Under the pieces are notes generated by a model. The model saw only the letters and a list, made by a program, of their open reading frames with translations, made no database searches and was not told the origin of the DNA. Positions 3,539 to 53,951 of a stretch of DNA of 64,000 bases are shown piece after piece. The position numbers and the translations under genes were made by a program. The DNA comes from Dehalococcoidia bacterium (lineage in GTDB: Bacteria > Chloroflexota > Dehalococcoidia > Bin125). Every line of letters starts with the position of its first letter. Position 1 is the stretch's first letter. The stretch spans positions 2,223,611 through 2,287,610 of the forward strand of contig OY760135.1 in assembly GCA_963663185.1 (NCBI GenBank), given 5' to 3'.

Positions 3539-3850
3539 GGATAAGGCTGGGCCACGCTCTCCGTTCTGCCACCAAACTCGTCCAGCGCCGACAGCAGCCG
3601 CTCACAACATCCAGCCCAGTCGGGGCTTTGTCCAGCATCAGCTCGTCTACGAAGGCGGCGGAGCGAAAACCCGCGCGTCCGACGAGACTGAACGATCACC
3701 GTATTGCGATGCGGGCGCGAGCACCTGGACAAGCAGGTCGACTTCCAGTATCGTTTTCCGAGACGATGCAGCGTTTGCCATGCCGTTTGGCTGGTGAGAC
3801 GGGAGCAACCAGGAGCAGTGAACGGCTCGCGGAGCCGCAGATGGGAGCGG

Positions 3851-5956
3851 ATGATGTTAGGCCAGCACATGTTTACTCACCGAATGCATACCCGCCGAGC
3901 GCTCGCACTGCTGGCGCTGATAATCGTTGCCGCGCTTGCCGTCAATACTGGCGCTAACAGGGGCATCATTCTCGGCGCCGAAGGGCCGAGCCTCACGATC
4001 AGTTCCACTACCGCGGGCGCCATCACCGAGACCCTTGAGAGCGGAACTCAGACTGGCCTGGTTGGGATCAACCTGGTGACCGGGCAGGAAGTGACGTATA
4101 GGTTAGAGACCAATGCGAATTCCAACACTCCTCCATCCGACGTATCCGAAATGTACCTGGACTTATTTTGTCGGTGTAACCGAACGGCCGATGTCGTCTC
4201 GTACACGACCAAAGCCGGGACCCCTGCTGCAACCAAGGTCAGTCTCCCCGATGTGAACGTGAAAATCGAAGGGGCGCCTCTACCGGCAGACGCGTTTCCG
4301 ATCGAGTTCACACTGAAGGGCTTGCGCAGCACTCGATTAACGTCCGGCACAGGCCGAAGCATGACCCCCACGCAGGTGGGTCGTGCCTATACAGCTGCCG
4401 TCTATTGGAAACAAGCTGGCCAGGTGACCAGTAACGGAGTCGTTGGGCGGATCATCGTCCGCGAACGCAGCCATTCCGTAGCTGAAAGCATGATGCAGTA
4501 TGTGTCGATCGATAACGCCGCGGATGTCATGAAAGGCGGCGCCATCAGCTATCCCGTTCGGCTCTCCGACCGGCAGCAACATCCCGTCAACGCGACCCAG
4601 AACATCCATCTCGTCATCACCACCTCCTCCGATTACACGGACACATATGACAATCCCGTGACGCCGCTCAATCAGCACGTTGTGATGATACCGATGGGCG
4701 CATCCTCCACCACGATCTCGGTGCAATCCAGGGCCGATGTGCAAACGCGTCCTGTTGAACGTGTCTACATTAAGGCGTATCTGAGAGACCACCCTGACGG
4801 TGTGACCTTCTTTGATCCATATGAGCAGTTTGATGCGATCGGCAAGGTAGTCGAGGGCACCGCGTTTAGCTTCCTGTACCCAACCTTTGAAGGCGGAGAA
4901 GGAAGCATCATGCCTATTCCGATTCGGGTGGAAGGCAACGTCAATGTGGGCGAGTTCGTGCTGCGATTAAACTTCTCATTCTGGGCGCCGAGGGGGTACT
5001 CCAAGGCCGCGGATGCGAATGATCTGGGGAATATCAGTCAATATGACTGCCGAATCAATCCGACCACACGAGGGGAACATTTGATCAGCCTGCCTCTGCA
5101 TCAGGACAACATGTCCGAACCGTCTGAGGCATTTGTGATGCAGCTGAGTCTGGTCAGCGCGCCCGTCGGTGTGACTGCTAGTGCAACTCCAAACTACTAC
5201 TTCAAGCAAAGGAATCTCGCGTACGGATACATCCATGAACAGCCTCCCTATACGTACCACAACCTCACCTCCGACTGCGTGACGGTTGAGGCACAGGGTT
5301 CCGTTCCAAGTTCCCAGCCGCTGCGTTCTCCAATCAGCTTGGGCGCAAGCGCTATAGCACTCGGTGAGGGCAGCAGCTTCAGTTACGACGTCACGCTCGA
5401 GAGCGACCCAGGCGAGCAGAGAGTGACCGTCACCCCCATCAGCAGCGACGAGGATACCATCGAGTCGCCGACCCCAATCTCGTTTGATTCCGGCAACTGG
5501 GATCAACCACAGCAGGTGATAGTGTCCGCCGCCGCTGATGCCGATGATGAGGATGACGTCGTAATGATCGGACATCGGGTTGAAGGCGTCAACGATGCCC
5601 CGGTCGGGCCGGCTATCTTCGCCACGGTCACGGAGCAACCGACAGTGGGTCTCGACTTGCGTCAGCCCACGCAACGATCATTCGGCGATCAACCATTCTT
5701 CGCCTACTGGATCCGACTTGACCGGCAACCGTCGTCCGATCTCGAAGTCGAACTGGCGCCTGCATCAGATAGCGTTGGCGTACAGTTGCATACAAACAGT
5801 CTCAGCTTCACCACCGAGAACTGGGATCGCTATCAGATCGTGGTACTGAAACCGCTAGACAGTTCTGCCGGCAGCGAGCTCAAGATCACTCACAGCGCGA
5901 CGACTCACATCATCAACAGCGGCGAGTCAGTCTCAGCCACGATCTCAGGTAGCTGA
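3851..5956 (+). CDS. Large secreted or membrane-anchored surface protein with repeated beta-sandwich modules (Calx-beta-like or cadherin-like)
   Basis: Start at MMLGQHMFTHRMHTRRALALLALIIVAALAVNTGA (signal peptide or anchor). Recurrent modules end in ...SEPSEAFVMQLSLVSAP, ...ISFDSGNWDQPQQVIVSAAADADDEDD and ...LSFTTENWDRYQIVVLKPLD. GC is about 55% against about 67% for the flanks. Confidence 0.6.
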   Translation: MMLGQHMFTHRMHTRRALALLALIIVAALAVNTGANRGIILGAEGPSLTISSTTAGAITETLESGTQTGLVGINLVTGQEVTYRLETNANSNTPPSDVSEMYLDLFCRCNRTADVVSYTTKAGTPAATKVSLPDVNVKIEGAPLPADAFPIEFTLKGLRSTRLTSGTGRSMTPTQVGRAYTAAVYWKQAGQVTSNGVVGRIIVRERSHSVAESMMQYVSIDNAADVMKGGAISYPVRLSDRQQHPVNATQNIHLVITTSSDYTDTYDNPVTPLNQHVVMIPMGASSTTISVQSRADVQTRPVERVYIKAYLRDHPDGVTFFDPYEQFDAIGKVVEGTAFSFLYPTFEGGEGSIMPIPIRVEGNVNVGEFVLRLNFSFWAPRGYSKAADANDLGNISQYDCRINPTTRGEHLISLPLHQDNMSEPSEAFVMQLSLVSAPVGVTASATPNYYFKQRNLAYGYIHEQPPYTYHNLTSDCVTVEAQGSVPSSQPLRSPISLGASAIALGEGSSFSYDVTLESDPGEQRVTVTPISSDEDTIESPTPISFDSGNWDQPQQVIVSAAADADDEDDVVMIGHRVEGVNDAPVGPAIFATVTEQPTVGLDLRQPTQRSFGDQPFFAYWIRLDRQPSSDLEVELAPASDSVGVQLHTNSLSFTTENWDRYQIVVLKPLDSSAGSELKITHSATTHIINSGESVSATISGS

Positions 5957-10544: not shown

Positions 10545-10653
10545 CGGTTTCCGCTCCGATCCACATGCGCTCAGGCTATCGCAAGCGAGTCAGTCAGCGT
10601 GGCCCTTGTTTGTATGAGCGCGCCTCGTTTGATGGGCTACTCTGGCGCTTGAA

Positions 10654-11697
10654 GTGGAGGCCAGCATGAGCAAGATTTCTGCAGACCCTCGAATCGACCC
10701 GCGCATCAAGGCGGTCTTCGGCGGATTGGACGCCTTTGCTCAACCTGACGCCGCGTCGCGCGAAGAGGTCATTGAGCGTGCCAACGCGGCTCAGAGCAGC
10801 GAGCAACTGGAAGGGCTGATCGCCTTCCTGGCCATGTGCGATACGGAAGAGATTGCGCCATCGGACGGGTTGACGTTCCGGACGTTCACGTTCAAGTCTG
10901 AGCCTGACGGCAACATCGTCCAGATTCGCCTCATTCGGCCCGAGATCGATGAGCCGTTGCCCTGTGTCTACTACATCCACGGCGGCGGCATGGCTCGGAT
11001 GTCGTGCTTCGACCCCAACTACCAGGCGTGGGGTCGGATCATCGCTCAGAACGGCGTGGCAGTTGCAATGGTTGATTTCCGCAACAGCGTGGTGGCATCG
11101 TCGGCGCCTGAGGTGGCGCCGTATCCCGGCGGTCTGAACGACTGCGCGTCGGGCCTGAGGTGGGTCGCCGACCACGCGGAGCGATTGGGGATTGATGCCT
11201 CGCGGATGATCATCGCTGGCGAGAGCGGCGGCGGCAATCTGACCCTCGCGACCGGCCTCAAGCTCCTGCGCGACGGCGACATTGAACTGGTCAAGGGGCT
11301 CTACGCGCTCTGTCCCTACATCGCCGGCAGTTGGCCGCGCGATGACCTGCCGTCGTCAACCGAGAACAACGGCATCCTGCTCGACCTGCACCACAACGGC
11401 GGCGCGATGGGCTACGGCTGGGACGCGTTTGCTTCCGAGGACCCGCTCGCCTGGCCGTCGTTCGCGTCTGAGGAGGATGTGCGCGGCTTGCCCTTGACGG
11501 TGATCTCGGTGAACGAGTGTGATCCGTTGCGCGACGAAGGGATTGCGTTCTACCGCTTGTTGCTGCGAGCGGGCGTATCGGCTCGCTGCCGTCAGGTGAT
11601 GGGTACGGTTCATGGCACCGAGGTGTTCCCGCTCGCCTGCCCCGATGTCTCACGAGACACGGCGAGGGACCTGTCAACCCTGGCGATCGGAGGCTGA
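10654..11697 (+). CDS. Alpha/beta-hydrolase fold-3 esterase/lipase (HSL family)
   Basis: YYIHGGGM (HGGG oxyanion motif), IAGESGGGNL (nucleophile elbow), and a C-terminal D/H. Confidence 0.8.
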   Translation: MEASMSKISADPRIDPRIKAVFGGLDAFAQPDAASREEVIERANAAQSSEQLEGLIAFLAMCDTEEIAPSDGLTFRTFTFKSEPDGNIVQIRLIRPEIDEPLPCVYYIHGGGMARMSCFDPNYQAWGRIIAQNGVAVAMVDFRNSVVASSAPEVAPYPGGLNDCASGLRWVADHAERLGIDASRMIIAGESGGGNLTLATGLKLLRDGDIELVKGLYALCPYIAGSWPRDDLPSSTENNGILLDLHHNGGAMGYGWDAFASEDPLAWPSFASEEDVRGLPLTVISVNECDPLRDEGIAFYRLLLRAGVSARCRQVMGTVHGTEVFPLACPDVSRDTARDLSTLAIGG

Positions 11698-16439: not shown

Positions 16440-16537
16440 AGCGACATCCTGCTCCCTGCGACCTATCATGATCCTGTTTGCGGCGTTGTTTGACATGTCC
16501 GTCCTGTCAGTCAGTCATGTCAGCCTGGAGATGTCAC

Positions 16538-17755
16538 ATGCCTGGACCACTTGACGGCGTGCGCGTGTTTGACCTGACGCTGTGGATGGTCGGGCCGTGG
16601 GCGTCGATGCAGCTCGGCGCGCTGGGCGCGGACATCATCCACATTGAGCAGCCGGGCGTCGATCCGCGCACCCTGGGCGCTGGCGTGCCTCCGTCGATTC
16701 ACGGGACGTCAGTCGGATACATCACCTGGAACATGAACAAACGCGGGCTGTTTCTCGACCTGAAATCGCCCGCCGACCGACAGACCGCGTACGAGTTACT
16801 ACAGACCTGCGATGTGTTTCTGATCAATATGCGACCCGGCGCGGCTGATCGCATGGGCGTCGGCTATGAGCAGGTCGCCGCGATCAATCCCAACATCATC
16901 TACACCGCCATCACTGGTTGGGGCGAACTCGGTCCTATGCGCGACAAGCCCGGCGCCGATGTGCAGTGCCAATATTTCACCGGTTTCTGGTCGGTCAACG
17001 GCAAGCGTGACGGTCGGCCTGAAGTCTACCGACATTTCACGCAGATGGATGCCAGCACCGGCAATGTCGCCGCGCAAGCGGTGCTGATGGGTCTGCTGGC
17101 GCGTAAGAGGACCGGACAGGGGCAGCGCATCCATGTCGGGATGCTGCGGGCTGGCATGGCGCTACAGAGCGGGCGCATCGCCGAGTACCTGGCAACCGGC
17201 GCGCAGCCGCAACCACTCGGCTCCGCCGGATTCGCCGCCGCTCCCGATCAGGCGTTTCAATGTCAGGGCGGCGACTGGATCGGCGTTGCCGCGACCAGCG
17301 AAGAGGAATGGCAACGCCTCTGCGAGGCCATGCGCGAGTCGGAAGCTGAGCTGCACGGTTTGAACGATCTCGCATCGGATCCGCGCTTCGCGACCAATCT
17401 CGACCGCGTCGCGCACCGCGATGCGCTGGCGCCGCTGCTGCAGGATGCCTTCCGTCAGCGACCGCGCCACTACTGGATGTTGCGTCTGAACGAGGTCGGC
17501 GTGCCTTGCGGATACCCGCTCACGTTCGAGTCTCTGCAACATCACGCGCAGGCAATCGAAAACGGCTACCTACGCGAGGTGACGACATCCGGTTGGGGCG
17601 ATGTCTGGACGGGTGGTCCGCCGTGGGAGCTGTCGAGGACGCCGGCACGGTGGTTCGGCGCGCCGCTGCCGGGCGAACACACTGGCGAGATCCTCGACGA
17701 TCTCTCACAGCGCAGAGCGTCGACAGAGGCGCCAACGCCAGTGGTCGGCGACTAG
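16538..17755 (+). CDS. Family-III CoA-transferase (CaiB/BaiF family)
   Basis: MPGPLDGVRVFDLTLWMVGPWASMQLGALGADIIHIE. Confidence 0.85.
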   Translation: MPGPLDGVRVFDLTLWMVGPWASMQLGALGADIIHIEQPGVDPRTLGAGVPPSIHGTSVGYITWNMNKRGLFLDLKSPADRQTAYELLQTCDVFLINMRPGAADRMGVGYEQVAAINPNIIYTAITGWGELGPMRDKPGADVQCQYFTGFWSVNGKRDGRPEVYRHFTQMDASTGNVAAQAVLMGLLARKRTGQGQRIHVGMLRAGMALQSGRIAEYLATGAQPQPLGSAGFAAAPDQAFQCQGGDWIGVAATSEEEWQRLCEAMRESEAELHGLNDLASDPRFATNLDRVAHRDALAPLLQDAFRQRPRHYWMLRLNEVGVPCGYPLTFESLQHHAQAIENGYLREVTTSGWGDVWTGGPPWELSRTPARWFGAPLPGEHTGEILDDLSQRRASTEAPTPVVGD

Positions 17756-17756
17756 G

Positions 17757-18911
17757 ATGCGTGGCCCGTTGGACGGCTATCGCGTGGTCGAGATTGCTGA
17801 GGGCGTTGCCGGCCCGTATACCGCCATGTCGCTCGGCGACGCCGGCGCAGACGTGATCAAGATCGAGCCGCCGTCAGGAGACCGAGCGCGTGGTTGGTCG
17901 CCGCAAACCGAGAGCGGAACCTCAGCTCTGTTTCAGGCGCTCAACCGCAGCAAGCGCGGCATCATGCTGGACTGGTCGTCAGAACGGGACCTCGAGACTG
18001 CCGAGCAACTACTCAGCAGCGCAGATGTCGCGATCGTCGACAAGGTCGGGCTGCCTGAATCATTGAACTGGGAATCACTCGATGCTCCTGGTCTCGTGTA
18101 TTGCGCGTTCTCCGGATTCGGGCCGCGCGGTCCCTGGCGCGAACGGCCGATCTCCGAGTTGGCGGCGCAGATGGCGAGTGAGGCGACGGCATCACTGGGC
18201 GTCATCGGCGAGGAACCGGTGCGGCACGGAGGCGACATCGGCTCGATGTACTCAGCCAACTACGCGATCCAGGCCATCTGCGCCGCGTTGTACGCACGTA
18301 ATGATACTCAGCCCTCCCGACCGACAGGCGGTCAACGGATCGAAGTGTCACTCTTCGGAAGCTTGCTGGCCATGCGATCGACGTTGTGGGTGGCGCTGTC
18401 GAATCCAGACGAATGGTGGGGCTTCCACCTGGACTCGTATGTGAAGCCGCCAGACCACGGCTATCAGTGTCGCGACCTGCCAATCTACTTCTCGCTGGCG
18501 CGGATCCGCGGCGACGCGTTTGAGTCATTGATCGACGAGCTCGGCATGGAGTGGGCTCGGACGCACCCAGACGTTGAGCGTCTGCGGACTGACGGCGCCG
18601 GAGGAGCCGGTCGCTACGCGGCCGAGCTGAAACCGCTCTGGGAGCGCGGCTTTGCCAACTTCAATGCGGCTCAAGTGATCGAGATCGTCGAGCGGCACGG
18701 CGGCTGGGCCTTCCCGATGCACGACTACGAGCGCCTCAGTCAGGATGCGCAGGTCGAGGCGGTAGGCGCGATCATTGAGCTCGAGCAGAGCGACGGCCTC
18801 GTGCTGTCTCAGGTGGCGCCGCCGTGGGACTTCGAGGGCACGCCAACAGCGGTTACTCGTCCGGCCCCAGGACTCGGCCAACATCAAGAGGAAGTACTGT
18901 CGGGAGCTTAA
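17757..18911 (+). CDS. Family-III CoA-transferase (CaiB/BaiF family)
   Basis: MRGPLDGYRVVEIAEGVAGPYTAMSLGDAGADVIKIEPP. Its start sits 1 nt after the previous stop. Confidence 0.85.
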   Translation: MRGPLDGYRVVEIAEGVAGPYTAMSLGDAGADVIKIEPPSGDRARGWSPQTESGTSALFQALNRSKRGIMLDWSSERDLETAEQLLSSADVAIVDKVGLPESLNWESLDAPGLVYCAFSGFGPRGPWRERPISELAAQMASEATASLGVIGEEPVRHGGDIGSMYSANYAIQAICAALYARNDTQPSRPTGGQRIEVSLFGSLLAMRSTLWVALSNPDEWWGFHLDSYVKPPDHGYQCRDLPIYFSLARIRGDAFESLIDELGMEWARTHPDVERLRTDGAGGAGRYAAELKPLWERGFANFNAAQVIEIVERHGGWAFPMHDYERLSQDAQVEAVGAIIELEQSDGLVLSQVAPPWDFEGTPTAVTRPAPGLGQHQEEVLSGA

Positions 18912-22427: not shown

Positions 22428-22436
22428 GTGTTGGCC

Positions 22437-24617
22437 TCACGGTGTTCTGCTCTTCGGCAGGCGGGCGGCGAGGAAATCCGCGTAGTGCAACGTGTCGTGC
22501 CGCGACTCGCGCGCAGCGGCGCCCGCGCGAAGATGGATGGCGCAGCCCGGGTTATTCGTCAGCAGCGTCTCGCAGCCTGACTGGGCGACGCAGTCGAGCT
22601 TGCGATCGAGGATGCCCTCACCCACCTCGGGCGCAGCCATTGACGTCAGGCCGCCGAAGCCGCAGCAGACTTCAGGTTCTTCGATCGGCAAGGCCGACTC
22701 GCCAGTCAGTCTCTGCACCAGCAGGTCTATTCGCGCGCCGGCATCGCCACGATTGGATGCCTGGCAGAATCGGTGCGCGCTCCACGATTCGCGCTCGCCG
22801 CCGCTGAGGCTGTCGTCGGGCAGGCGACCATCGCCGTCGAGCCAGGCCGCGAGATCGTGGACGCGACCGCTGACGGCGGCGGTGCGTTCGCGCCACTTCG
22901 GCTCATCGGCGAAGAGCTGCGGCCAATGCTCGCGCATCGCGATCACGCAGCTGGGCGCAGGGGTGACGATCTGGTGGTCGCCCGATTCCAACGCTTCGAT
23001 CGTCTGCCGCGCCATGCGGCGCGCGGTCTGCCAATCGCCTGCGTCAAAGGCGGGGAGCCCGCAGCAATGCTGATCCTGCGGCAGATTGACAGCGGCGCCG
23101 CCAGCCTCAATCAGACGTGCGGACGAGTCGACGACCGAGGGCATGAGCCGGTCGGCCAGGCACTGTGCGAACAGGTCGACGGTTTGCCCCGACGCTGGCG
23201 CTGGCGCGATTACGGATTGCGGCGCGCGACTTCGGACCAGGGTCTGTCCGCTGCGGAGAGGCAGCGTCGGGATTGAGCGCCAGCGTAGTCGTTTGGGCAA
23301 CGGCAGACGCAAGTGATCGCGTCGGACGAGTCCGATCGCGCGGGCGAGCGCGGACGCCCACGCGCCGATTCCAAACAGCGAGTTGAGCAGCCTCGGCCGC
23401 GCCCACAGACGCAGCGCCGCGCGCTCCCAGATCGGCGCGTGCCCCGATTCGTGCGCTCGCTTACGAACCTCAAGGATCTGTTTGGGCAGCGGGATGGCGA
23501 CGGGACATACCGTCTCACAGGCCCCGCAGGAGACGCAGAGTCCCTGCGGGCCGGCCGCGTCTGCAAGCGAGTGGTGGAACGTCGTGTTGACGAGGCCGAT
23601 CGCGCCGGTGTAGATGTGACCAAACGTGTGTCCGCCAACGATCTGGTACGGCGGGCAGACGTTGGCGCAGGCGCCGCAGCGGATGCAGCGCAACGCGTCG
23701 CCGATGACGTCGTGGTCGCGCATCGCTCGACGGCCATTGTCGAGCAGGATGATGTGCATCTCCTTGCCTGGTTGGGCGCCGGTGATGCAGGTGGTGTACG
23801 TACTCAGGGTCTGCGCGGTAGCCGAGCGCGGCAGCAGCTGGAGCTGTCGTTCGGCATCGGCCCAGGTCGGTATCAGCTTCTCGATCCCGGCCGTGATGAA
23901 GTGTACATCGGGCAGCGAGGTCGCGAGCCGCATGTTGCCTTCATTGGTGACGACCATGATGCTCCCGCTTTCGGCGATCAACGCATTGGCGCCAGTCAGC
24001 CCCGCGCCGGCCGCGAGATAGTGCCGCCGCAATCCGCCGCGAGCGCTGGCGACCATGGCCGGGATGTCGTCTGGATCAAAGTCCTCGCCGAGCTCCTTAC
24101 CCAGGATCTCTGCGACGTATTGACGCTTCTGGTGAATCGCGGGCATCACGAGATGTGAAGGGCGTTCCTCGGCGAGCTGCAGCAACCACTCGCCGAGATC
24201 GGTTTCGATTGCGGTGATGTTGCGCTGTTCAAGCTCGTGATTGAGTTCGATTTCCTCCGACACCATCGATTTGCTCTTGACCACCAGATCAATCCCGCGC
24301 GACTTGCAGACGGCGGCGATGTACTGCACCGCGTCGGCGGCCGTCCGCAGCTCAACGACGGTCGCGCCGGCTGCCTCTGCGTTGGCGCGGAACTCGGCGA
24401 GGTAGTCGTCGAGCCGCTCCAGGGTCGCGTCTTTGACAGCGGCGAAATCGTGGCGGAGTTCGTCAAAGGAGCGCTCACGGCGCTGCTCGAGTCGGCGAAC
24501 CTGAGCGTCCCGGCTCTCGCGCCAGGATCGCTGGAATTCAAGCAGTCGCGGACGCAGATCGGGATCGCTGACGGAGCGACGGTAGCGCGTCTTGAACGGC
24601 GCGGTCGATGCGCTCAT
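22437..24617 (-). CDS. lutBA: Fused LutB-LutA lactate-utilisation-type iron-sulfur protein (LUD domain, 2x[4Fe-4S] ferredoxin, two CCG cysteine-rich domains)
   Basis: CIRCGACANVCP...CVSCGACETVCP ferredoxin motifs, then CCGLPAFDAGDW and CCGFGG CCG motifs. Confidence 0.8.
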   Translation of the reverse strand: MSASTAPFKTRYRRSVSDPDLRPRLLEFQRSWRESRDAQVRRLEQRRERSFDELRHDFAAVKDATLERLDDYLAEFRANAEAAGATVVELRTAADAVQYIAAVCKSRGIDLVVKSKSMVSEEIELNHELEQRNITAIETDLGEWLLQLAEERPSHLVMPAIHQKRQYVAEILGKELGEDFDPDDIPAMVASARGGLRRHYLAAGAGLTGANALIAESGSIMVVTNEGNMRLATSLPDVHFITAGIEKLIPTWADAERQLQLLPRSATAQTLSTYTTCITGAQPGKEMHIILLDNGRRAMRDHDVIGDALRCIRCGACANVCPPYQIVGGHTFGHIYTGAIGLVNTTFHHSLADAAGPQGLCVSCGACETVCPVAIPLPKQILEVRKRAHESGHAPIWERAALRLWARPRLLNSLFGIGAWASALARAIGLVRRDHLRLPLPKRLRWRSIPTLPLRSGQTLVRSRAPQSVIAPAPASGQTVDLFAQCLADRLMPSVVDSSARLIEAGGAAVNLPQDQHCCGLPAFDAGDWQTARRMARQTIEALESGDHQIVTPAPSCVIAMREHWPQLFADEPKWRERTAAVSGRVHDLAAWLDGDGRLPDDSLSGGERESWSAHRFCQASNRGDAGARIDLLVQRLTGESALPIEEPEVCCGFGGLTSMAAPEVGEGILDRKLDCVAQSGCETLLTNNPGCAIHLRAGAAARESRHDTLHYADFLAARLPKSRTP

Positions 24618-25120
24618 GCGATCACCGCCACGCTCAGTCGACTCGGACCCTGCACACCGATCGTGAGCGAACGCTCAATGTCCGCCGTGCGCGAGGGACC
24701 CGTTACAAATGTCGCGTAGGCGGCAGCCCGCGGCTGTCTCGCCAGCCAGCGAAACCCGTCCGCGAGGTTGTCGACCAGGTCCGCTCCCCGGACCGCGACG
24801 ATCAGATGCCGCGTGAGCAGCGATACTGCGCGATCGATTGGCGCCGGCTCCACTAACAGCACCGAGCCGGTTTCGGCGACGGCCAGCGTCGCCACCGTGA
24901 TCCCGACCGCGCGGTCGGCGATCGAACGCAGTGGATCGTTGGAATCCGGCAGGATCCCACGCTGGAGTTGCGCATAGGCGGACGGTGAAACCACGGGTTC
25001 GTAATCCGAGAGCGATGCGCCGAATTCCCAGACCTCGCCCCAGGTCGCGAGCTCGACGAACTCGCCCTGCGCGGCAGCGAGCGCGTCGGCGAATTGACTG
25101 ATCTGATCGGTGGTCGCCAT
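24614..25120 (-). CDS. lutC: LutC-like LUD-domain protein
   Basis: ...AETGSVLLVEPAPIDRAVSLLTRHLIVAV... LUD/DUF162 pattern. ATGA overlap with lutBA. Confidence 0.75.
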   Translation of the reverse strand: MATTDQISQFADALAAAQGEFVELATWGEVWEFGASLSDYEPVVSPSAYAQLQRGILPDSNDPLRSIADRAVGITVATLAVAETGSVLLVEPAPIDRAVSLLTRHLIVAVRGADLVDNLADGFRWLARQPRAAAYATFVTGPSRTADIERSLTIGVQGPSRLSVAVIA

Positions 25121-25208
25121 GCGCTCAGGCTAACGTTTGACTGTGAACGCACCCGTCGCGCGCTGAGTCGCTTCCGCTCACCGATGGGAACAGGGAACGG
25201 ACGCCGCG

Positions 25209-30699: not shown

Positions 30700-30799
30700 T
30701 CTGCCGGCGTCCGATGATCCGGTCGAATGGCTGACAGACCAGTTTGTTTGGCCAGATGAACTGATTGATGAACTGATTGATGAAAAGGAAGCGTTTCCG

Positions 30800-31132
30800 G
30801 TGAGCAACATCGCGATTTGGGTGAAGGTCAAGGTCAAGCCAGAAGGTCGCGAGCGCTTTCTGCACGCGATCGAGGTTGACGCGCTGGGCTCCGAAGCTGA
30901 CGAGCCCGGTTGCCTGCGCTTCAATGTCCTGCAGGACGCCAACGACGATCTGACGTACTACTTCTACGAGGTCTATCGGGACGAAGCGGCGCTCGCCGCG
31001 CACCGCGAGGCGCCGCACTACGCGGTCTGGTCGGCGGCAGCCGACACGCTTGACGGCGCCGTCGAGATCACCAGGACGTCAACCGTCTTTCCGTCCGATC
31101 CGGACTACTGGTCAACGGACTCGAAGGGCTGA
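30800..31132 (+). CDS. ABM-domain (antibiotic biosynthesis monooxygenase-like) protein
   Basis: IAIWVKVKVKPEGRERFL...LRFNVLQD...YYFYEVYRDEAALAAHREAPHY. Confidence 0.7.
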   Translation: MSNIAIWVKVKVKPEGRERFLHAIEVDALGSEADEPGCLRFNVLQDANDDLTYYFYEVYRDEAALAAHREAPHYAVWSAAADTLDGAVEITRTSTVFPSDPDYWSTDSKG

Positions 31133-31188
31133 GTCGGCGCGATATCAGGTCGCCGCCTCAGAGGCAGGCAGCCTATGGGGGCTGACCG

Positions 31189-31736
31189 TCAGGCGCCCAA
31201 GAGGCTCTGGCGGCCCAAAAGGATCCTGCGGCCTTGCTCGTAAGCGTCGAGCGCTCTCGCCTGTAGGCCTTCGCTCCCAGCGCTGCCGATCGGATGATCG
31301 ACCAGGGCGTAGCGAAAGTCGGGCATGCCCAGAGTCCTGGCGATCATGCGGCTGGTGGGATCGAACGGGTGCGTGCAGAGCACCAGTCCTGGCTTGCCGT
31401 GCTGCTCAAAGCTGATCCCGTCGTGCACACTGCACGTGGAGCAGGAGCCTCAATCGCCGACCGCCGTGATCAGGAAGTCCACATCGTTGGCGATCCGTTC
31501 GAGCAGTTGCGGCTCAGCGATCCGACTGGCGTTGACCTTGCCCGAATCAACGACGATATTGCAGCCTGCCTCCCGCTCAAAGACTTCGGCCGTGTAGCGC
31601 AATAGCTTGTCGGCGTTGACCTTGCCGTTCGAGAACAGACCAACGCGCAGGCCATCCAGGCTGGACAGTCTGGGCGCTGCGATGAATCCTGTGGGCGTCG
31701 GTTCGCCGGTCGGATCGAGTAATTCGATAGGCATGA
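31189..31736 (-). CDS. Candidate selenoprotein, UGSC-type, with an in-frame TGA (genome 31450-31452) read as Sec
   Basis: One continuous frame: MPIELLDPTGEP...DFLITAVGD-[TGA]-GSCSTCSVHDGISFEQHGKPGLVLCTHPFD..., about 182 aa. The two halves share the frame with only the TGA between them. The motif is D-U-G-S-C-x-x-C. A 6-bp stem-loop (cgugca-GUG-ugcacg) begins 13 nt downstream of the UGA. Confidence 0.7.
31422..31436 (-). promoter_or_regulatory. Candidate bacterial SECIS hairpin downstream of the in-frame UGA
   Basis: mRNA UGA-N13-CGUGCA GUG UGCACG. The apical loop has G and U, as in the fdhF-type SECIS. Confidence 0.45.
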
Positions 31737-31759
31737 GACAGTTTCCCTTAGCAGCTCCC

Positions 31760-32824
31760 TTAGCAGTCGAGGCAGACGCCGATCGCTTTGGTCTGGTAGA
31801 TCGAGTTGCGCCCGCGACTCCAGGACGGCAGGAAGGCGGAGTGTCCGCCCGCCTCACCGCCAGCGACGACCAGCAGGATGTCTTCCGGGGAACGCCCGCG
31901 ATGGAACCGGTCGCCGCTGCGATCGCCTTCGGCGAGTCCGTCCTGCGATTGCCCTGACGGCTGCCCTGACGGCCATTTGCCGTTGCTCAACATGTCGTCA
32001 GGGTCGCGACTGGCGTGCTCGAAGAGGTATGCCTGCACATCCCGTTTGGACATGCCGCCGGAGGCGGCGATCTGCGCGTGTTCCGGCGACATCACCACCA
32101 GCGATTGGCCATCGGTGAGCGCGCCCAGCGACGCCATGGCATCAGCGAAGGTGTCGAGCAGCCGTTCCGGATCGCTCGTGTAGTGATTCTCGACGTTGTA
32201 GAAGCCTGAGGCGGCGAAGACGGTTGCGGTGGACACCTCGGCCGGGAAACCGAGCGATTCGTGCAGCGGTTCCCAGGGGCTGTTGAGGATGTTCTCGGCG
32301 ATGCAGCAGGCGTACTTGCCTGGCCAGCCAGTGGTGGAACGGTCCGAGACGCCGGGGATCATCTGGAAAATGTTCATGATGATCAGTCGAATTGCGCGTC
32401 CGATGGTCGCGTTGGCGCGATTGCCGGGCCCGAACACGTTGACGCTGGCGTTCATCCCGATCTCATCGCGGATGTCGCCAGAGACGACGATCGCCGGCGC
32501 TGATCCGCCCGTGCTGGCCGTCGATCCATGAAAGTTGTAGCGATCTTCGTTGAGGCCTTCGAGCGCCGCGAGCACGGTCGGGAAGTATTGCGGCAGGCAG
32601 CCGGCCATGACCGCGTTGACCGCTGCCGACTGGACGTTGCATTCGCGGCCAGTGGCGGGGTGTCGAGCGACGACCTCTTCGGGAGGACGTCCAGCGGCCA
32701 TCAAAAATCGCTCGACGCGCTCGCGAGCCGGAGGCACCACGGGCAGTCCGTCGGTCCAGCCCTGCTCATAGCACCAGTCAATGGCAGAGAGCTCGTCCGT
32801 CAGGGTGTGAGTCTTCGCGGTCAT
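31760..32824 (-). CDS. Conserved hypothetical protein (354 aa) immediately upstream of the UGSC gene, probably co-transcribed
   Basis: Intact ORF ending ...AIGVCLDC, 24 bp before the UGSC start. Contains ...HGSTASTGGSAPAIVVSGD...KYACCIAENIL.... I do not recognise the family. Confidence 0.6.
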   Translation of the reverse strand: MTAKTHTLTDELSAIDWCYEQGWTDGLPVVPPARERVERFLMAAGRPPEEVVARHPATGRECNVQSAAVNAVMAGCLPQYFPTVLAALEGLNEDRYNFHGSTASTGGSAPAIVVSGDIRDEIGMNASVNVFGPGNRANATIGRAIRLIIMNIFQMIPGVSDRSTTGWPGKYACCIAENILNSPWEPLHESLGFPAEVSTATVFAASGFYNVENHYTSDPERLLDTFADAMASLGALTDGQSLVVMSPEHAQIAASGGMSKRDVQAYLFEHASRDPDDMLSNGKWPSGQPSGQSQDGLAEGDRSGDRFHRGRSPEDILLVVAGGEAGGHSAFLPSWSRGRNSIYQTKAIGVCLDC

Positions 32825-32925
32825 GGGCGCAGTCTAGAGCGTTACCTCATGACACCTCCTTTGCAGGAGGTCTGCGACCAGCCGATTTACTTCGTCCGCG
32901 CGAACTGATCACGTAGACTGACACC

Positions 32926-34629
32926 GTGGCGCTCGGGACCGATTCCCGATGGTCCCCTGAAGAGGCGGCGATGGCGCAGACGAACGGGCCAGCTCCGCGC
33001 GCCGCCGATCGGCCGCAGCAGGACGATGATCGACCGCTGGTGGCAGGGCCGTCACTCGGACCCATTCCGTACTACTGGGTAGCTGCCGCCGTCGTCTGCG
33101 TGGGCACGTTCCTTGGCGTGGTCGACAACTCGATCACGAACATCGCTCTCCCCACGATGAGCGAAGAGTTCGGACGCTCCGCCGACGATGTGGTCTGGGT
33201 GGCGCTCTCATTCATCGTCGTCAGTACCGGCCTGTCGCTGACGATGGGTCGGCTTGGCGACATCTACGGCCGCAAGATGCTCTATGTGGTTGGATTCTTC
33301 ATCCTCACGATCGCGACCGGACTCTCAGCGATCGCAGGCTCCCTGGAAGAGCTGATCGGGACGCGCATCGTGCAGGCGATCGGGTCGGCGATGACGATGG
33401 CGAACGGCGCGGCGATCATCACTGCGGCGTTCCCTCCTTCGAAGCGCGGCACCGGACTCGGACTAATGGTTTCGACCGTCGGCGCGGGCGCCATGGCGGG
33501 ACCGGCGCTCGGCGGAGTGTTGATCGACCTGTTCGACTGGCGCGCGATCTTCTGGACGCGGGTGCCGTTTGGCCTGATCGGCGTCTTCATGGCCTGGCGA
33601 CTGCTGGTTGACGGATCGCCCGAACATCGTCCCAAGGGGCTGGACATCCCTGGCGCGCTGTTGCTGTTCGGGATGCTCGGCTTCGTGACCTTCGGAATCA
33701 ATCGCGGTCAAAGTATCGGCTGGACCTCACCTTTCATGCTGACGATGTTCATCGCGAGCGCTGTTTGTCTGCTGGGATTCATTGGCGTAGAGCGGCGCGC
33801 GGCGTCGCCGGTGGTTGATCTCGGTCTGTTCAAGGGTCGAGGGTTCAGCTTCGGCATCTCCGCCGCGATCTTGCAGTTCATGGGGATGAGCGCATCGCTC
33901 TATCTGACGCCGTGGTTATGGCAGTTGGGGCGCGGATTCGAGCCGATCGAGATCGCGGCGGTCATGTTGCCCATGCCGATGGCGATGATGCTGTGGTCTC
34001 CTGTCTCCGGGCGCTTCTCCGACCGATTGGGCTCGCGTCCACTCACCACGGCGGGAATGGTGATGGTCTGCGTGTCCCTGTTCCTGCTCTCGCGGACGAC
34101 CGCCGACACGTCGCCAATCGACTTCGGTTTGCGGATGCTGCTGTTGGGAATCGGCACGTCGACATTCAGTTCACCCAATACGGCCGTGATCATGTCTGCG
34201 GTGCCGCCGCAACGCCTGGGCACGGCATCCGCAGCGCAAACGACGGCTCGGACGATCGGCAACGCGATCGGCGCCGCGGTCTGGGTGGCTATCTTCGTCT
34301 CGATCGCCGGCGCGGTCGGCGACGCAGATGCCCCCGCGCAATCCCCGAGCCTGATCATTGACGGCTTCCGCACCGCGCTCCTGGTTGCGGCAATTGCGAC
34401 GGCGCCGGCCATTCTGTTCTCGCTGGTCGGCGGACAGCGAGGCGTCCGCGCGGTCGCCAAACAGGTGCAGGTCGTGCAGCAAGCGATCAAGTCCGAGATC
34501 GGCATGATGGTGCCGCTTGTGCGAGGCCAGAAATCGGTCGTCTATCGTGCGAACGGTCGGAACGGCGCGTCTGCTCCGGTCACAGCGACCGAGAAATCGG
34601 CGAAACGTCCGACGCAGTCGGCGCGGTGA
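32926..34629 (+). CDS. MFS transporter, 14-TMS drug:H+ antiporter (DHA2) type
   Basis: ...GRLGDIYGRKMLYVVGF... MFS motif A, about 14 hydrophobic segments. The true start may be at about 32971. Confidence 0.8.
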   Translation: MALGTDSRWSPEEAAMAQTNGPAPRAADRPQQDDDRPLVAGPSLGPIPYYWVAAAVVCVGTFLGVVDNSITNIALPTMSEEFGRSADDVVWVALSFIVVSTGLSLTMGRLGDIYGRKMLYVVGFFILTIATGLSAIAGSLEELIGTRIVQAIGSAMTMANGAAIITAAFPPSKRGTGLGLMVSTVGAGAMAGPALGGVLIDLFDWRAIFWTRVPFGLIGVFMAWRLLVDGSPEHRPKGLDIPGALLLFGMLGFVTFGINRGQSIGWTSPFMLTMFIASAVCLLGFIGVERRAASPVVDLGLFKGRGFSFGISAAILQFMGMSASLYLTPWLWQLGRGFEPIEIAAVMLPMPMAMMLWSPVSGRFSDRLGSRPLTTAGMVMVCVSLFLLSRTTADTSPIDFGLRMLLLGIGTSTFSSPNTAVIMSAVPPQRLGTASAAQTTARTIGNAIGAAVWVAIFVSIAGAVGDADAPAQSPSLIIDGFRTALLVAAIATAPAILFSLVGGQRGVRAVAKQVQVVQQAIKSEIGMMVPLVRGQKSVVYRANGRNGASAPVTATEKSAKRPTQSAR

Positions 34630-53636: not shown

Positions 53637-53951
53637 GCTGTTGCTCCTTGCCCAAGCCTGTTTCAGGGTGTGCTTCACCCCCAGCACTGTGCCAGATTCG
53701 CGCCCGGCTCCCAAGTCCATAATCAGTACTGTGGCAACGTTGATTACCTCCAGTGAACAAAGCAGACCATCGAACGATCCCGAAACTGACCCCAGCGGTC
53801 GCTCCGGCAACAACTCCGCCATGGATGCGGACCTCGCACCTGACTCTCCGGAGAGCACGGTCAGCAGTTGATGAACCAGTTGATGAACCGGCCATTCACA
53901 GCCCGTCAACCAGCCGCTAGCCAGCTTGGTAGATGCAAGATGCAGCCTGCG

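What the first reader, a model, noticed from the sequence alone, without database searches (positions are those of the whole stretch)
31189..32824. Candidate UGSC-type selenoprotein (in-frame TGA, D-U-G-S-C-S-T-C motif, downstream hairpin) with a conserved unknown partner gene
Two ORFs that the ORF track keeps separate (31450-31857 and 31189-31428) lie in one frame. Only a TGA at 31450-31452 stands between them. Reading through it gives a single protein of about 182 aa whose junction is ...ITAVGD-U-GSCSTCSVHD.... The Sec sits right next to a Cys in a CxxC-like redox motif, which is the pattern of the poorly characterised 'UGSC' selenoprotein group first seen in marine metagenomes. A 6-bp stem and 3-nt loop (CGUGCA-GUG-UGCACG) starts 13 nt after the UGA, at the position a bacterial SECIS would occupy. 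The 354-aa gene 24 bp upstream (which ends ...CLDC and contains KYACC) is probably co-transcribed and could be a functional partner. Neither gene has a known function.
Basis: partly seen in the sequence, partly recalled or inferred. Interest (0 to 1): 0.8.

Follow-up and report, generated by a model that had tools for sequence, protein, structure and literature searches.

The report
UGSC selenoprotein with its obligate partner
This two-gene operon encodes a member of the already catalogued but functionally unknown UGSC selenoprotein family and an unannotated 354-residue protein that almost always accompanies it, probably forming a two-part redox enzyme whose substrate is unknown.

Summary
On the minus strand, ATG 31734 reads through one in-frame TGA (31452-31450) to a stop at 31191-31189. 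This gives a 181-aa protein with ...AVGD-U-GSCSTCSVHD.

It matches Pfam PF24696 (UGSC, 158 bits) and NCBIfam NF041046. Full-length homologues put Cys at the TGA. All 75 UGSC genes found next to the partner in other genomes also have TGA there.

The hairpin CGUGCA-GUG-UGCACG meets every constraint of the published bacterial SECIS model. It is fully paired in 75 distinct sequences, with compensatory changes, and is absent from Cys-type genes.

The upstream 354-aa gene has no Pfam, NCBIfam or PDB relative, but its family has at least 6,300 representative clusters. UGSC lies beside it in 75 of 79 informative genomic loci. In the reverse test, 90 of 120 UGA+hairpin metagenome hits carry it directly upstream. 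The pairing also holds for Cys forms and in Methanobacterium.

About a quarter of the best-scoring partner representatives are fused to UGSC. Rarer fusions are to thioredoxin-reductase-like, ferredoxin:thioredoxin-reductase and AhpC/Redoxin modules.

The UGSC model is flavodoxin-like, not thioredoxin-like as the literature guessed.

Verdict: a genuine new member of a known selenoprotein family. The partner link is useful but was partly foreshadowed in 2008. Function is still unknown.

The parts
31760..32824 (-). Partner gene, 354 aa. It belongs to a large uncharacterised family with no Pfam or NCBIfam model. Invariant motifs in its clade: GWTDGLPVVPP, AVMAGC, STASTGG, RANATIGRA, DxST, PGK, AEN, PEH, SWSR, C-terminal CxDC.
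   Evidence: ORF. No Pfam/NCBIfam hit. At least 7,922 homologues, all named 'hypothetical'. Alignment A1. 6,326 representative clusters.
32597..32599 (-). Codon for partner Cys76 (AVMAGC). It is the only Cys conserved across the wider family, and so the candidate redox or catalytic thiol.
   Evidence: Invariant in A1. At least 90% conserved in the 62 diverse long representatives of A7. Present in the Cys-type and archaeal partners.
31763..31774 (-). Codons for the partner's C-terminal C351-L-D-C354 motif, which is specific to this clade. The tail has low model confidence.
   Evidence: Invariant in A1. pLDDT is below 50 for residues 350-354. The motif is absent from distant members P0312, P0318 and P0251.
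31735..31759 (-). 25-nt intergenic spacer with a purine-rich AAGGGA ahead of the UGSC ATG. The two genes are presumably co-transcribed.
   Evidence: Sequence. No promoter-like site on this strand and no terminator-like site in 30700-33200. The same gene order and tight spacing occur in most related loci.
31189..31734 (-). UGSC-family selenoprotein gene, 181 aa with Sec95, including the stop codon.
   Evidence: Translation. Pfam PF24696 E = 3e-46. NCBIfam NF041046, 122 bits.
31441..31452 (-). Codons for U95-G-S-C98. TGA at 31452-31450 is the Sec codon.
   Evidence: Cys aligns here in the full-length homologues. TGA in 75 of 75 related loci. G96, S97 and C98 are invariant.
31416..31440 (-). bSECIS-type stem-loop. 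The core is a 6-bp stem (31436-31431 with 31427-31422) and a GUG loop (31430-31428). A 3-bp lower stem (UCC/GGA) sits across an internal loop.
   Evidence: Folds (-9.2 kcal/mol for 25 nt). The core is 100% paired in 75 distinct sequences, three of its pairs change on both sides, and 0 of 500 shuffles reach the observed values. The hairpin is absent from Cys-type genes. It meets the published bSECIS constraints.

Best explanation
The region is a two-gene operon. The downstream gene encodes a UGSC-family selenoprotein.

- **Recoding.** Its UGA at 31452-31450 is read as selenocysteine with the help of a small SECIS hairpin that starts 13 nt downstream.
- **The selenoprotein.** The protein is modelled as a flavodoxin-like alpha/beta domain. 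The U-G-S-C motif sits at the N-terminus of the helix that follows strand 3. In that position Sec95 and Cys98 can cycle between a selenol/thiol pair and a selenenylsulfide.
- **The partner.** The upstream 354-aa protein is its dedicated partner. The two most likely form one enzyme, and in many organisms they are a single polypeptide.
- **Division of labour (inferred).** The large subunit would carry the substrate site and the family-wide Cys76. In this clade it also has a flexible C-terminal CxDC tail. UGSC would be the redox-active selenium subunit.
- **Electron supply (inferred).** Reducing equivalents would enter from thioredoxin-type systems.

Shown here: the selenoprotein identity, the SECIS hairpin, the near-obligate pairing and the fusions. 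Inferred: physical complex formation, selenenylsulfide chemistry, the electron route, and the idea that the pair reduces a small-molecule or protein substrate. The substrate is unknown.
For: **Family and Sec site**
- Pfam PF24696 at 158 bits and NCBIfam NF041046 at 122 bits.
- Cys homologues align Cys with the UGA.
- TGA at this codon in 75 of 75 loci from Chloroflexota, Proteobacteria, Acidobacteriota, Binatia, Rokubacteria and others.
- Gene callers split the Sec forms into 94-aa N-terminal halves and separate C-terminal halves.

**SECIS hairpin**
- The published model constraints are a 3-9 nt loop, a 4-16 bp stem, G in the first two loop positions, 16-37 nt spacing and MFE <= -7.5 kcal/mol (PMC13188914).
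- All are met: loop GUG, 6 bp, 19 nt, -9.2 kcal/mol.
- The six core pairs are paired in every one of 75 distinct sequences. Changes on both sides include UA to GU/CG/GC and CG to GC. One involves a synonymous Leu CUG to CUC change. 0 of 500 shuffles reach the observed values.
- Seven Cys-type genes have only 2-5 of the 6 pairs and no GUN loop.

**Pairing with the partner**
- UGSC is adjacent in 75 of 80 partner loci. That is 75 of 79 informative loci, because one contig is too short.
- 90 of 120 metagenome stretches picked only by the UGA+hairpin pattern carry the partner directly upstream on the same strand. Nearly all the others are cut off by a contig end.
- Every Cys-type UGSC checked, including one from Methanobacterium, has a partner homologue next to it.
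- No other gene family is shared by more than 16 of 81 neighbourhoods.

**Fusions**
- 38 of the 62 partner representatives of at least 400 aa carry a UGSC domain.
- The others carry FeThRed_B (2), AhpC/Redoxin (2), Pyr_redox_2 (1) or Thioredoxin_8 (1).
- L087 has the gene trio UGSC, partner, Pyr_redox_2.

**Fold**
- The model of homologue P0122 has pLDDT 92.5 and a beta-alpha-beta architecture. The Cys equivalent to Sec lies at a helix N-terminus.
Against: - No selA, selB, selD or tRNA-Sec lies in the 64-kb window. Sec decoding by this organism is therefore inferred, not shown.
- The NCBIfam score of 122 is just under the curated cutoff of 125. It was obtained with Sec written as Cys.
- The hairpin's energy does not differ from shuffled sequence.
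- The covarying stem positions also change amino acids (Cys/His to Gly/Leu and so on). Protein-level co-variation could therefore contribute.
- The UGSC structure was modelled on a 42%-identical Cys homologue, not on the window protein.
- Complex formation and the electron path rest only on gene adjacency and fusions.
- A few partner loci lack UGSC (L013, L050, L077, L078), and a few UGSC hits lack the partner (L096, L179, L183).
Confidence: 0.8

Rival explanations
1. The TGA is a real stop. The locus would then encode a 94-aa protein plus a separate small ORF, or it is a pseudogene.
For: Automated gene callers annotate it this way. Hundreds of 94-aa entries exist, along with separate C-terminal ORFs. 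No Sec machinery lies in the window.
Against: The same TGA occurs in 75 of 75 loci across phyla, with the downstream 86 residues conserved. Cys-containing full-length homologues exist. Single-polypeptide UGSC-partner fusions exist. GC3 is 0.81 downstream of the TGA. The SECIS hairpin is conserved.
Confidence: 0.02
2. The hairpin is a by-product of the conserved peptide T-C-S-V-H-D, whose codons happen to be palindromic. It would then not be a functional SECIS.
For: The stem lies entirely in conserved codons. Most double changes go with amino-acid changes. The folding energy is not unusual.
Against: All 75 distinct TGA-type sequences keep 6 of 6 pairs whatever the peptide (TCSVH, SGSVL, AASVA, SWGLH, ARSLR). 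The loop Ser/Gly codon is always xGU. A synonymous Leu CUG to CUC change restores a pair. Cys-type genes that encode related peptides keep only 2-5 pairs and have other loops.
Confidence: 0.05
3. UGSC is a free-standing general thiol oxidoreductase or antioxidant of the thioredoxin type, as the literature assumed. The neighbouring gene would be only one of its clients, or unrelated.
For: PMC2398784 proposed a Trx-like fold and a redox function. The UxxC motif fits.
Confidence: 0.08
4. The pair is not a substrate reductase. It would instead be a sulfur/selenium-transfer or metal/Fe-S handling module, with UGSC acting as a persulfide, perselenide or metal carrier.
For: Cys-type loci carry a third small gene of about 80 aa with a CxxC(L)VP motif. 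The same module is fused to the C-terminus of some UGSC proteins (P0123, P0161, P0163). One fusion partner, FeThRed_B, is an Fe-S protein.
Against: The other fusion partners (TrxR-like flavoprotein, AhpC/Redoxin, thioredoxin-like) are classic disulfide-reduction modules. No cysteine desulfurase, SelD or metallochaperone genes recur in the neighbourhoods.
Confidence: 0.15

Closest known systems
UGSC-containing selenoprotein family (Zhang & Gladyshev, Sargasso Sea and GOS selenoproteomes; NCBIfam NF041046; Pfam PF24696)
   Same: Profile match, U-G-S-C motif, rare Cys homologues, a SECIS directly downstream, and an environmental (marine, soil, sponge) distribution. This gene is a member of the family.
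   Different: Nothing essential differs. This copy belongs to a Chloroflexota-type clade; its closest relative is the sponge MAG SB0664_bin_15, at 88% identity. The published guess of a thioredoxin-like fold is not supported by the structure model.
'UGSC/Unknown_1' fusion noted in the GOS selenoproteome paper (PMC2398784, Fig. S1A)
   Same: A conserved domain of unknown function fused to UGSC and also found as a separate protein. The partner family here is fused to UGSC in many representatives.
   Different: Identity with 'Unknown_1' could not be verified, because the figure is held only as an image. [quoted passage not shown] Here the family has at least 6,300 representative clusters, is almost always adjacent to UGSC, and extends to Archaea.
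Glycine/betaine/sarcosine and D-proline reductases (selenoprotein GrdB/PrdB with UxxC, plus substrate-binding subunits, fed by the thioredoxin system)
   Same: The logic is the same. A UxxC selenoprotein subunit is tied to a specific non-seleno subunit, and thioredoxin-reductase-type modules appear as likely electron donors.
   Different: There is no sequence relationship: no Pfam hit to GRDB (PF07355) or Gly_reductase (PF09338) for either protein. The sizes and predicted folds differ. The hosts are mostly aerobic heterotrophs rather than Stickland fermenters. This is an analogy only.
Bacterial SECIS consensus (bSECISearch model)
   Same: Loop size, a G followed by U at the start of the loop, stem length, UGA-to-loop spacing and energy all fit.
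   Different: It is very compact, with a 3-nt loop, and lies wholly inside highly conserved codons. No Rfam family matches it.

Membership tests
UGSC family (seleno)protein (Pfam PF24696 / NCBIfam NF041046) | Match to the Pfam family profile above the curated threshold | tested here: met
   PF24696, E = 3.2e-46, 158 bits against a cutoff of 25, covering residues 4-172 of 181 (Sec written as Cys).
UGSC family (seleno)protein (Pfam PF24696 / NCBIfam NF041046) | Match to the NCBIfam equivalog model above its curated cutoff | tested here: inconclusive
   NF041046, E = 1.9e-35, 122 bits against a cutoff of 125. This is just below the cutoff, and Sec had to be replaced by Cys for the scan.
UGSC family (seleno)protein (Pfam PF24696 / NCBIfam NF041046) | U-G-S-C motif with Sec encoded by an in-frame TGA, and Cys in the non-seleno homologues | tested here: met
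   AVGD-U-GSC at 31452-31441. Cys aligns with the TGA in full-length homologues. TGA in 75 of 75 related loci.
Bacterial selenoprotein gene (general) | [quoted passage not shown] | tested here: met
   Loop GUG, 6-bp stem, 19 nt spacing, -9.2 kcal/mol. Conserved with compensatory changes. Absent from Cys forms.
Bacterial selenoprotein gene (general) | Genome encodes selA, selB, selD and tRNA-Sec | not testable with these tools
   None is in the 64-kb window: no tRNA, no Rfam hit, and Pfam annotation of 45 of its larger ORFs finds none. The rest of the genome is not available, and the source contig is not on record.
Bacterial selenoprotein gene (general) | Selenium actually incorporated into the protein | not testable with these tools
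   This needs 75Se labelling or mass spectrometry.
Thioredoxin-fold oxidoreductases (the fold suggested for UGSC in PMC2398784) | Thioredoxin fold with the redox motif at the N-terminus of helix 1 | tested here: not met
Glycine/proline reductase selenoprotein B (GRDB, PF07355) with a Gly_reductase partner (PF09338) | Sequence-profile membership of either subunit | tested here: not met
   Below E = 0.01, the only Pfam hit for the UGSC protein is PF24696, and the partner has none.
'Unknown_1' domain fused to UGSC (PMC2398784) | Found fused to UGSC and also as a stand-alone protein | tested here: met
   38 of 62 long representatives of the partner family carry a UGSC domain. Examples are P0291, P0298, P0312 and P0310.
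'Unknown_1' domain fused to UGSC (PMC2398784) | Sequence identity with the published Unknown_1 alignment | not testable with these tools
   Supplementary Figure S1A is held only as an image.

The most novel reading that the evidence does not exclude
UGSC plus the 354-aa family would be a previously unrecognised, very widespread two-subunit selenoenzyme with two folds that have no solved relative. It would use a selenenylsulfide relay, fed by thioredoxin-type reductases, to reduce an unknown substrate in aerobic marine, soil and sponge-associated heterotrophs and in some methanogens. That would make it a new enzyme class comparable in logic to glycine or proline reductase.
Probability: 0.4. Interest if true: 0.7.

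Novelty: new member of a known kind. Interest (0 to 1): 0.38.

Why it matters
UGSC was the fifth most abundant of the 51 selenoprotein families in the Global Ocean Sampling data: 255 Sec forms against 21 Cys forms (PMC2398784). A 2026 review still lists it without a function (PMC13188914).

This work shows that it almost never occurs without one specific, unannotated 350-residue protein. The two are often a single polypeptide. The only other fused modules found are thioredoxin-reductase-like, ferredoxin:thioredoxin-reductase and peroxiredoxin/thioredoxin-like domains. Together these give a concrete experimental handle: co-express the pair, supply a thioredoxin system and look for a substrate.

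The work also flags a large protein family that lacks a Pfam or NCBIfam model. It shows as well that routine gene calling splits UGSC genes in two.

The window itself adds only one more instance of the family.

Tried and rejected
- **Rfam and tRNA scans of the window.** Nothing was found, so no SECIS family or tRNA-Sec could be cited.
- **PDB sequence searches.** Single sequences and profiles for both proteins gave no significant relatives.
- **AFDB Foldseek.** The library was unavailable.
- **Modelling the window's own UGSC protein.** A Cys homologue was modelled instead.
- **A conserved third gene.** Clustering 81 neighbourhoods found nothing shared beyond the pair. The surroundings are variable catabolic genes, so guilt by association gives no substrate.
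- **A second copy in the window.** The 354-aa ORF at 10633-11697 is an alpha/beta hydrolase, not a paralogue.
- **Other same-frame ORF pairs separated by TGA in the window.** Two contiguous pairs stood out in the ORF list: LutB-like/amidohydrolase at 22436/22437 and inositol monophosphatase/unknown at 53951/53952. For the first, the downstream ORF carries a complete Amidohydro_2 domain from residue 8, so they look like separate genes. The second pair was not examined further.
- **Glycine/proline reductase membership.** Considered and rejected, because there is no profile match.
- **Exact-sequence look-up of the source contig.** It failed.
Full report
**1. The observation**

On the minus strand a 354-codon ORF runs from ATG 32824 to TAA 31762-31760. 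Twenty-five nucleotides later, ATG 31734 opens a frame that meets TGA at 31452-31450. The same frame then continues to TGA 31191-31189.

Read through, the product has 181 residues with the junction ...LITAVGD-U-GSCSTCSVHD.... The hairpin is exactly as described: CGUGCA (31436-31431), GUG (31430-31428), UGCACG (31427-31422), starting 13 nt after the UGA. Third-position GC content is 0.73 before and 0.81 after the TGA, so both halves look coding. The only correction is that the spacer is 25 nt, not 24.

**2. Identity of the downstream gene**

With Sec written as Cys, the protein matches two family models:
- Pfam PF24696 'UGSC family': E = 3e-46, 158 bits against a cutoff of 25.
- NCBIfam NF041046 'UGSC family (seleno)protein': 122 bits, just under the cutoff of 125.

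The family is already in the literature. The GOS selenoproteome paper counts 255 Sec forms and 21 Cys forms, ranks it among the major marine selenoproteins and suggests a Trx-like fold (PMC2398784). A 2026 review still lists it as uncharacterised (PMC13188914).

In the 5.8-billion-protein collection, full-length homologues carry Cys at the UGA position. These include Methanobacterium proteins that NCBI names 'UGSC family (seleno)protein'. Hundreds of other entries are 94-residue N-terminal halves ending ...AVGD, or C-terminal halves starting at MHD. This is the signature of Sec genes split by gene callers.

**3. TGA conservation and the SECIS**

A scan of one genome per GTDB species with the partner profile returned 80 loci. 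They come from Chloroflexota/Dehalococcoidia, Pseudomonadales, Alphaproteobacteria, Burkholderiales, Vicinamibacterales, Binatia, Rokubacteria, Poribacteria, Entotheonella and others. The closest is the sponge-associated Chloroflexi MAG SB0664_bin_15, at 88% identity.

tblastn found a UGSC gene in 75 of these loci, and all 75 have TGA at the aligned codon.

I aligned 76 sequences around the TGA (A3). The six core stem pairs are standard pairs in every one of 75 distinct sequences. Three of them show changes on both sides: U-A to G-U, C-G or G-C; G-C to C-G; and C-G to G-C. None of 500 column shuffles reaches the observed values, and slid registers collapse.

Two further details point to an RNA-level constraint:
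- The loop is always G-U-N, and the Ser (or Gly) codon that supplies it is always xGU.
- In the SWGLH variants a synonymous Leu CUG to CUC change restores pairing with the Trp codon.

As a control, seven Cys-type UGSC genes keep only 2-5 of the 6 pairs at the same position and have unrelated loops.

The published bSECIS model asks for a 3-9 nt loop with G in its first two positions, a 4-16 bp stem, 16-37 nt between the UGA and the loop, and MFE <= -7.5 kcal/mol (PMC13188914). The window element has a GUG loop, 6 bp, 19 nt and -9.2 kcal/mol once its 3-bp lower stem is included.

The energy alone does not differ from shuffles (z = 0.68), so the argument rests on conservation and covariation. Some covarying positions also change amino acids. 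I therefore keep a small probability that protein-level constraints contribute.

**4. The partner**

The family is nevertheless very large:
- at least 7,922 hits in the word-indexed search, every named one 'hypothetical';
- 6,326 representative clusters at E <= 1e-3 in the exhaustive search, of which 1,654 are at E <= 1e-30.

Within its clade it is extremely conserved. Motifs include GWTDGLPVVPP, AVMAGC, STASTGG, RANATIGRA, D-x-ST, PGK, AEN, PEH, SWSR and a C-terminal C-x-D-C.

Across the wider family the only Cys retained is Cys76 of AVMAGC. The C-terminal CxDC is specific to this clade. The least confident segments of the model are residues 100-107 (STASTGG), 164-169 and the C-terminal tail. 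These coincide with invariant motifs, as would be expected for loops that become ordered only with a ligand or a partner.

**5. The pairing**

Starting from the partner, 75 of 80 loci have UGSC adjacent, usually directly downstream on the same strand. A more sensitive HMM check of the remainder gave this picture:
- One contig (L039) is too short to be informative.
- L036 carries a decayed UGSC that lacks the motif region.
- Four loci (L013, L050, L077, L078) have no UGSC within 6 kb.

Starting from UGSC, I scanned metagenome contigs with a DNA pattern made only of the UGA and hairpin region, which is independent of the partner. This gave 120 stretches. A partner HMM hit 90 of them, almost always ending about 290-350 nt upstream of the UGA on the same strand. 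Nearly all the others have too little upstream sequence. Only about five with at least 600 nt of room lack the partner.

Every Cys-type UGSC gene examined also has a partner homologue next to it, at 32-42% identity and in either gene order. These include a Methanobacterium locus, one with two divergent pairs (L088) and one with an extra tandem-partner fusion (L085).

Clustering all ORFs from 81 neighbourhoods showed that nothing else is shared by more than 16 loci. The surroundings are variable catabolic genes: luciferase-like monooxygenases, SDRs, CaiB-type CoA-transferases, acyl-CoA dehydrogenases, TauD, TctC and MFS transporters. The window itself has this character.

**6. Fusions**

Among the 150 best representative clusters of the partner family, 62 are at least 400 aa long. 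A Pfam scan of those 62 found:
- a UGSC domain in 38, either full-length Cys-type or only the post-UGA half, as expected for a Sec-type fusion cut by the gene caller;
- the ferredoxin:thioredoxin reductase catalytic chain in 2;
- AhpC/Redoxin in 2;
- a thioredoxin-reductase-like Pyr_redox_2 flavoprotein in 1;
- Thioredoxin_8 in 1.

L087 also encodes UGSC, partner and a Pyr_redox_2 protein in a row. So every additional module seen is a thiol-disulfide redox component.

The 2008 paper mentioned a 'UGSC/Unknown_1' fusion. This is probably the same domain, but the figure is held only as an image and I could not verify it.

**7. UGSC fold**

The window protein could not be submitted because of its stop codon. 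I modelled the 42%-identical Cys homologue P0122 with 36 aligned sequences and obtained pLDDT 92.5.

The literature's fold guess is therefore not supported. The chemically relevant feature, a redox motif at a helix N-terminus, is present.

**8. Mechanism**

Shown by the results above:
- UGSC family membership and conservation of the in-frame TGA; selenium incorporation itself was not tested;
- a conserved SECIS-type hairpin specific to the TGA forms;
- a near-obligate two-gene unit that is often a single polypeptide;
- fusion only to disulfide-reductase-type modules.

Inferred from these:
- The two proteins form one enzyme.
- Sec95/Cys98 cycle through a selenenylsulfide.
- They exchange with partner Cys76, and in this clade with the C-terminal CxDC tail.
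- Electrons come from thioredoxin-type systems.
- The large subunit binds an unknown substrate.

The logic resembles glycine and proline reductases, but there is no homology to them. A minority alternative is a sulfur/selenium or metal-handling role. The hint for it is an 80-residue CxxC(L)VP protein encoded after Cys-type pairs and fused to some UGSC proteins.

**9. What could not be settled**

No Sec machinery lies in the window, the rest of the genome is not available, and the source contig is not on record. No substrate can be inferred.

**10. Verdict**

The selenoprotein is a new member of a known family. The strength and breadth of the partner link, its redox-module fusions and the corrected fold go somewhat beyond the literature I could search. 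They are leads rather than a new kind of system, so I rate the interest as moderate.

Noticed in passing
L081:7619-7846, L085:3528-3779, L088:751-993; proteins P0123, P0161, P0163: Cys-type UGSC/partner pairs are followed by a small gene of about 75-85 aa with a conserved DGY..(R)..C-x-x-C-L-V-P motif and no Pfam hit. A similar segment forms the C-terminal extension of some 270-aa UGSC proteins. The window's Sec-type locus has no such gene, but its partner ends in CxDC.
   Followed up: partly
L087:3001-5606; L088:990-4651; L085:1967-5962: Three variant architectures were seen. L087 has a UGSC, partner, Pyr_redox_2 gene trio. L088 has two divergently transcribed UGSC-partner pairs. L085 has a pair followed by a 707-aa tandem partner-partner fusion. 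Tandem partner duplications of about 710 aa (P0251, P0255, P0259) also occur.
   Followed up: partly
L036:6001-7106; L013, L050, L077, L078; L096, L179, L183: These are exceptions to the pairing. L036 has a decayed UGSC that lacks the motif region. Four partner loci have no UGSC within 6 kb. A few UGA+hairpin hits have room upstream but no detectable partner.
   Followed up: partly
window partner residues 100-107, 164-169, 350-354 (31763-32527): The lowest-confidence stretches of the partner model coincide with invariant motifs: STASTGG, TGWPGK and the C-terminal CxDC. This suggests functional loops that are ordered only in a complex or with a ligand.
   Followed up: no
window:1744-2844 and 3704-5956: An IS-type transposase (DUF772 + DDE_Tnp_1) lies next to a lower-GC segment (0.55-0.59 against 0.63 overall). 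That segment holds a 750-aa ORF with no Pfam hit and may be an insertion.
   Followed up: partly
window:8046-10589 and 16472-18908: Four paralogous CoA-transferase family III genes occur as two adjacent pairs. Acyl-CoA dehydrogenase, a thiolase-like gene, two Amidohydro_2 genes and an ABC peptide-type transporter lie in the same window. This is the paralogue-rich catabolic make-up typical of marine and sponge Chloroflexota.
   Followed up: no
window:27869-29797 and 22440-25129: A tungsten-type aldehyde:ferredoxin oxidoreductase gene lies just beyond the TauD and ABM genes that flank the UGSC end of the pair. A fused LutB-like protein (LUD + 4Fe-4S + CCG domains) with a LutC-like gene lies a few kb further on.
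   Followed up: no
window:39406-45554: Two long minus-strand ORFs carry UvrD-helicase and PD-(D/E)XK nuclease domains, like AddA/AddB. Their codon-position GC pattern is atypical, with GC1 about equal to GC3.
   Followed up: no
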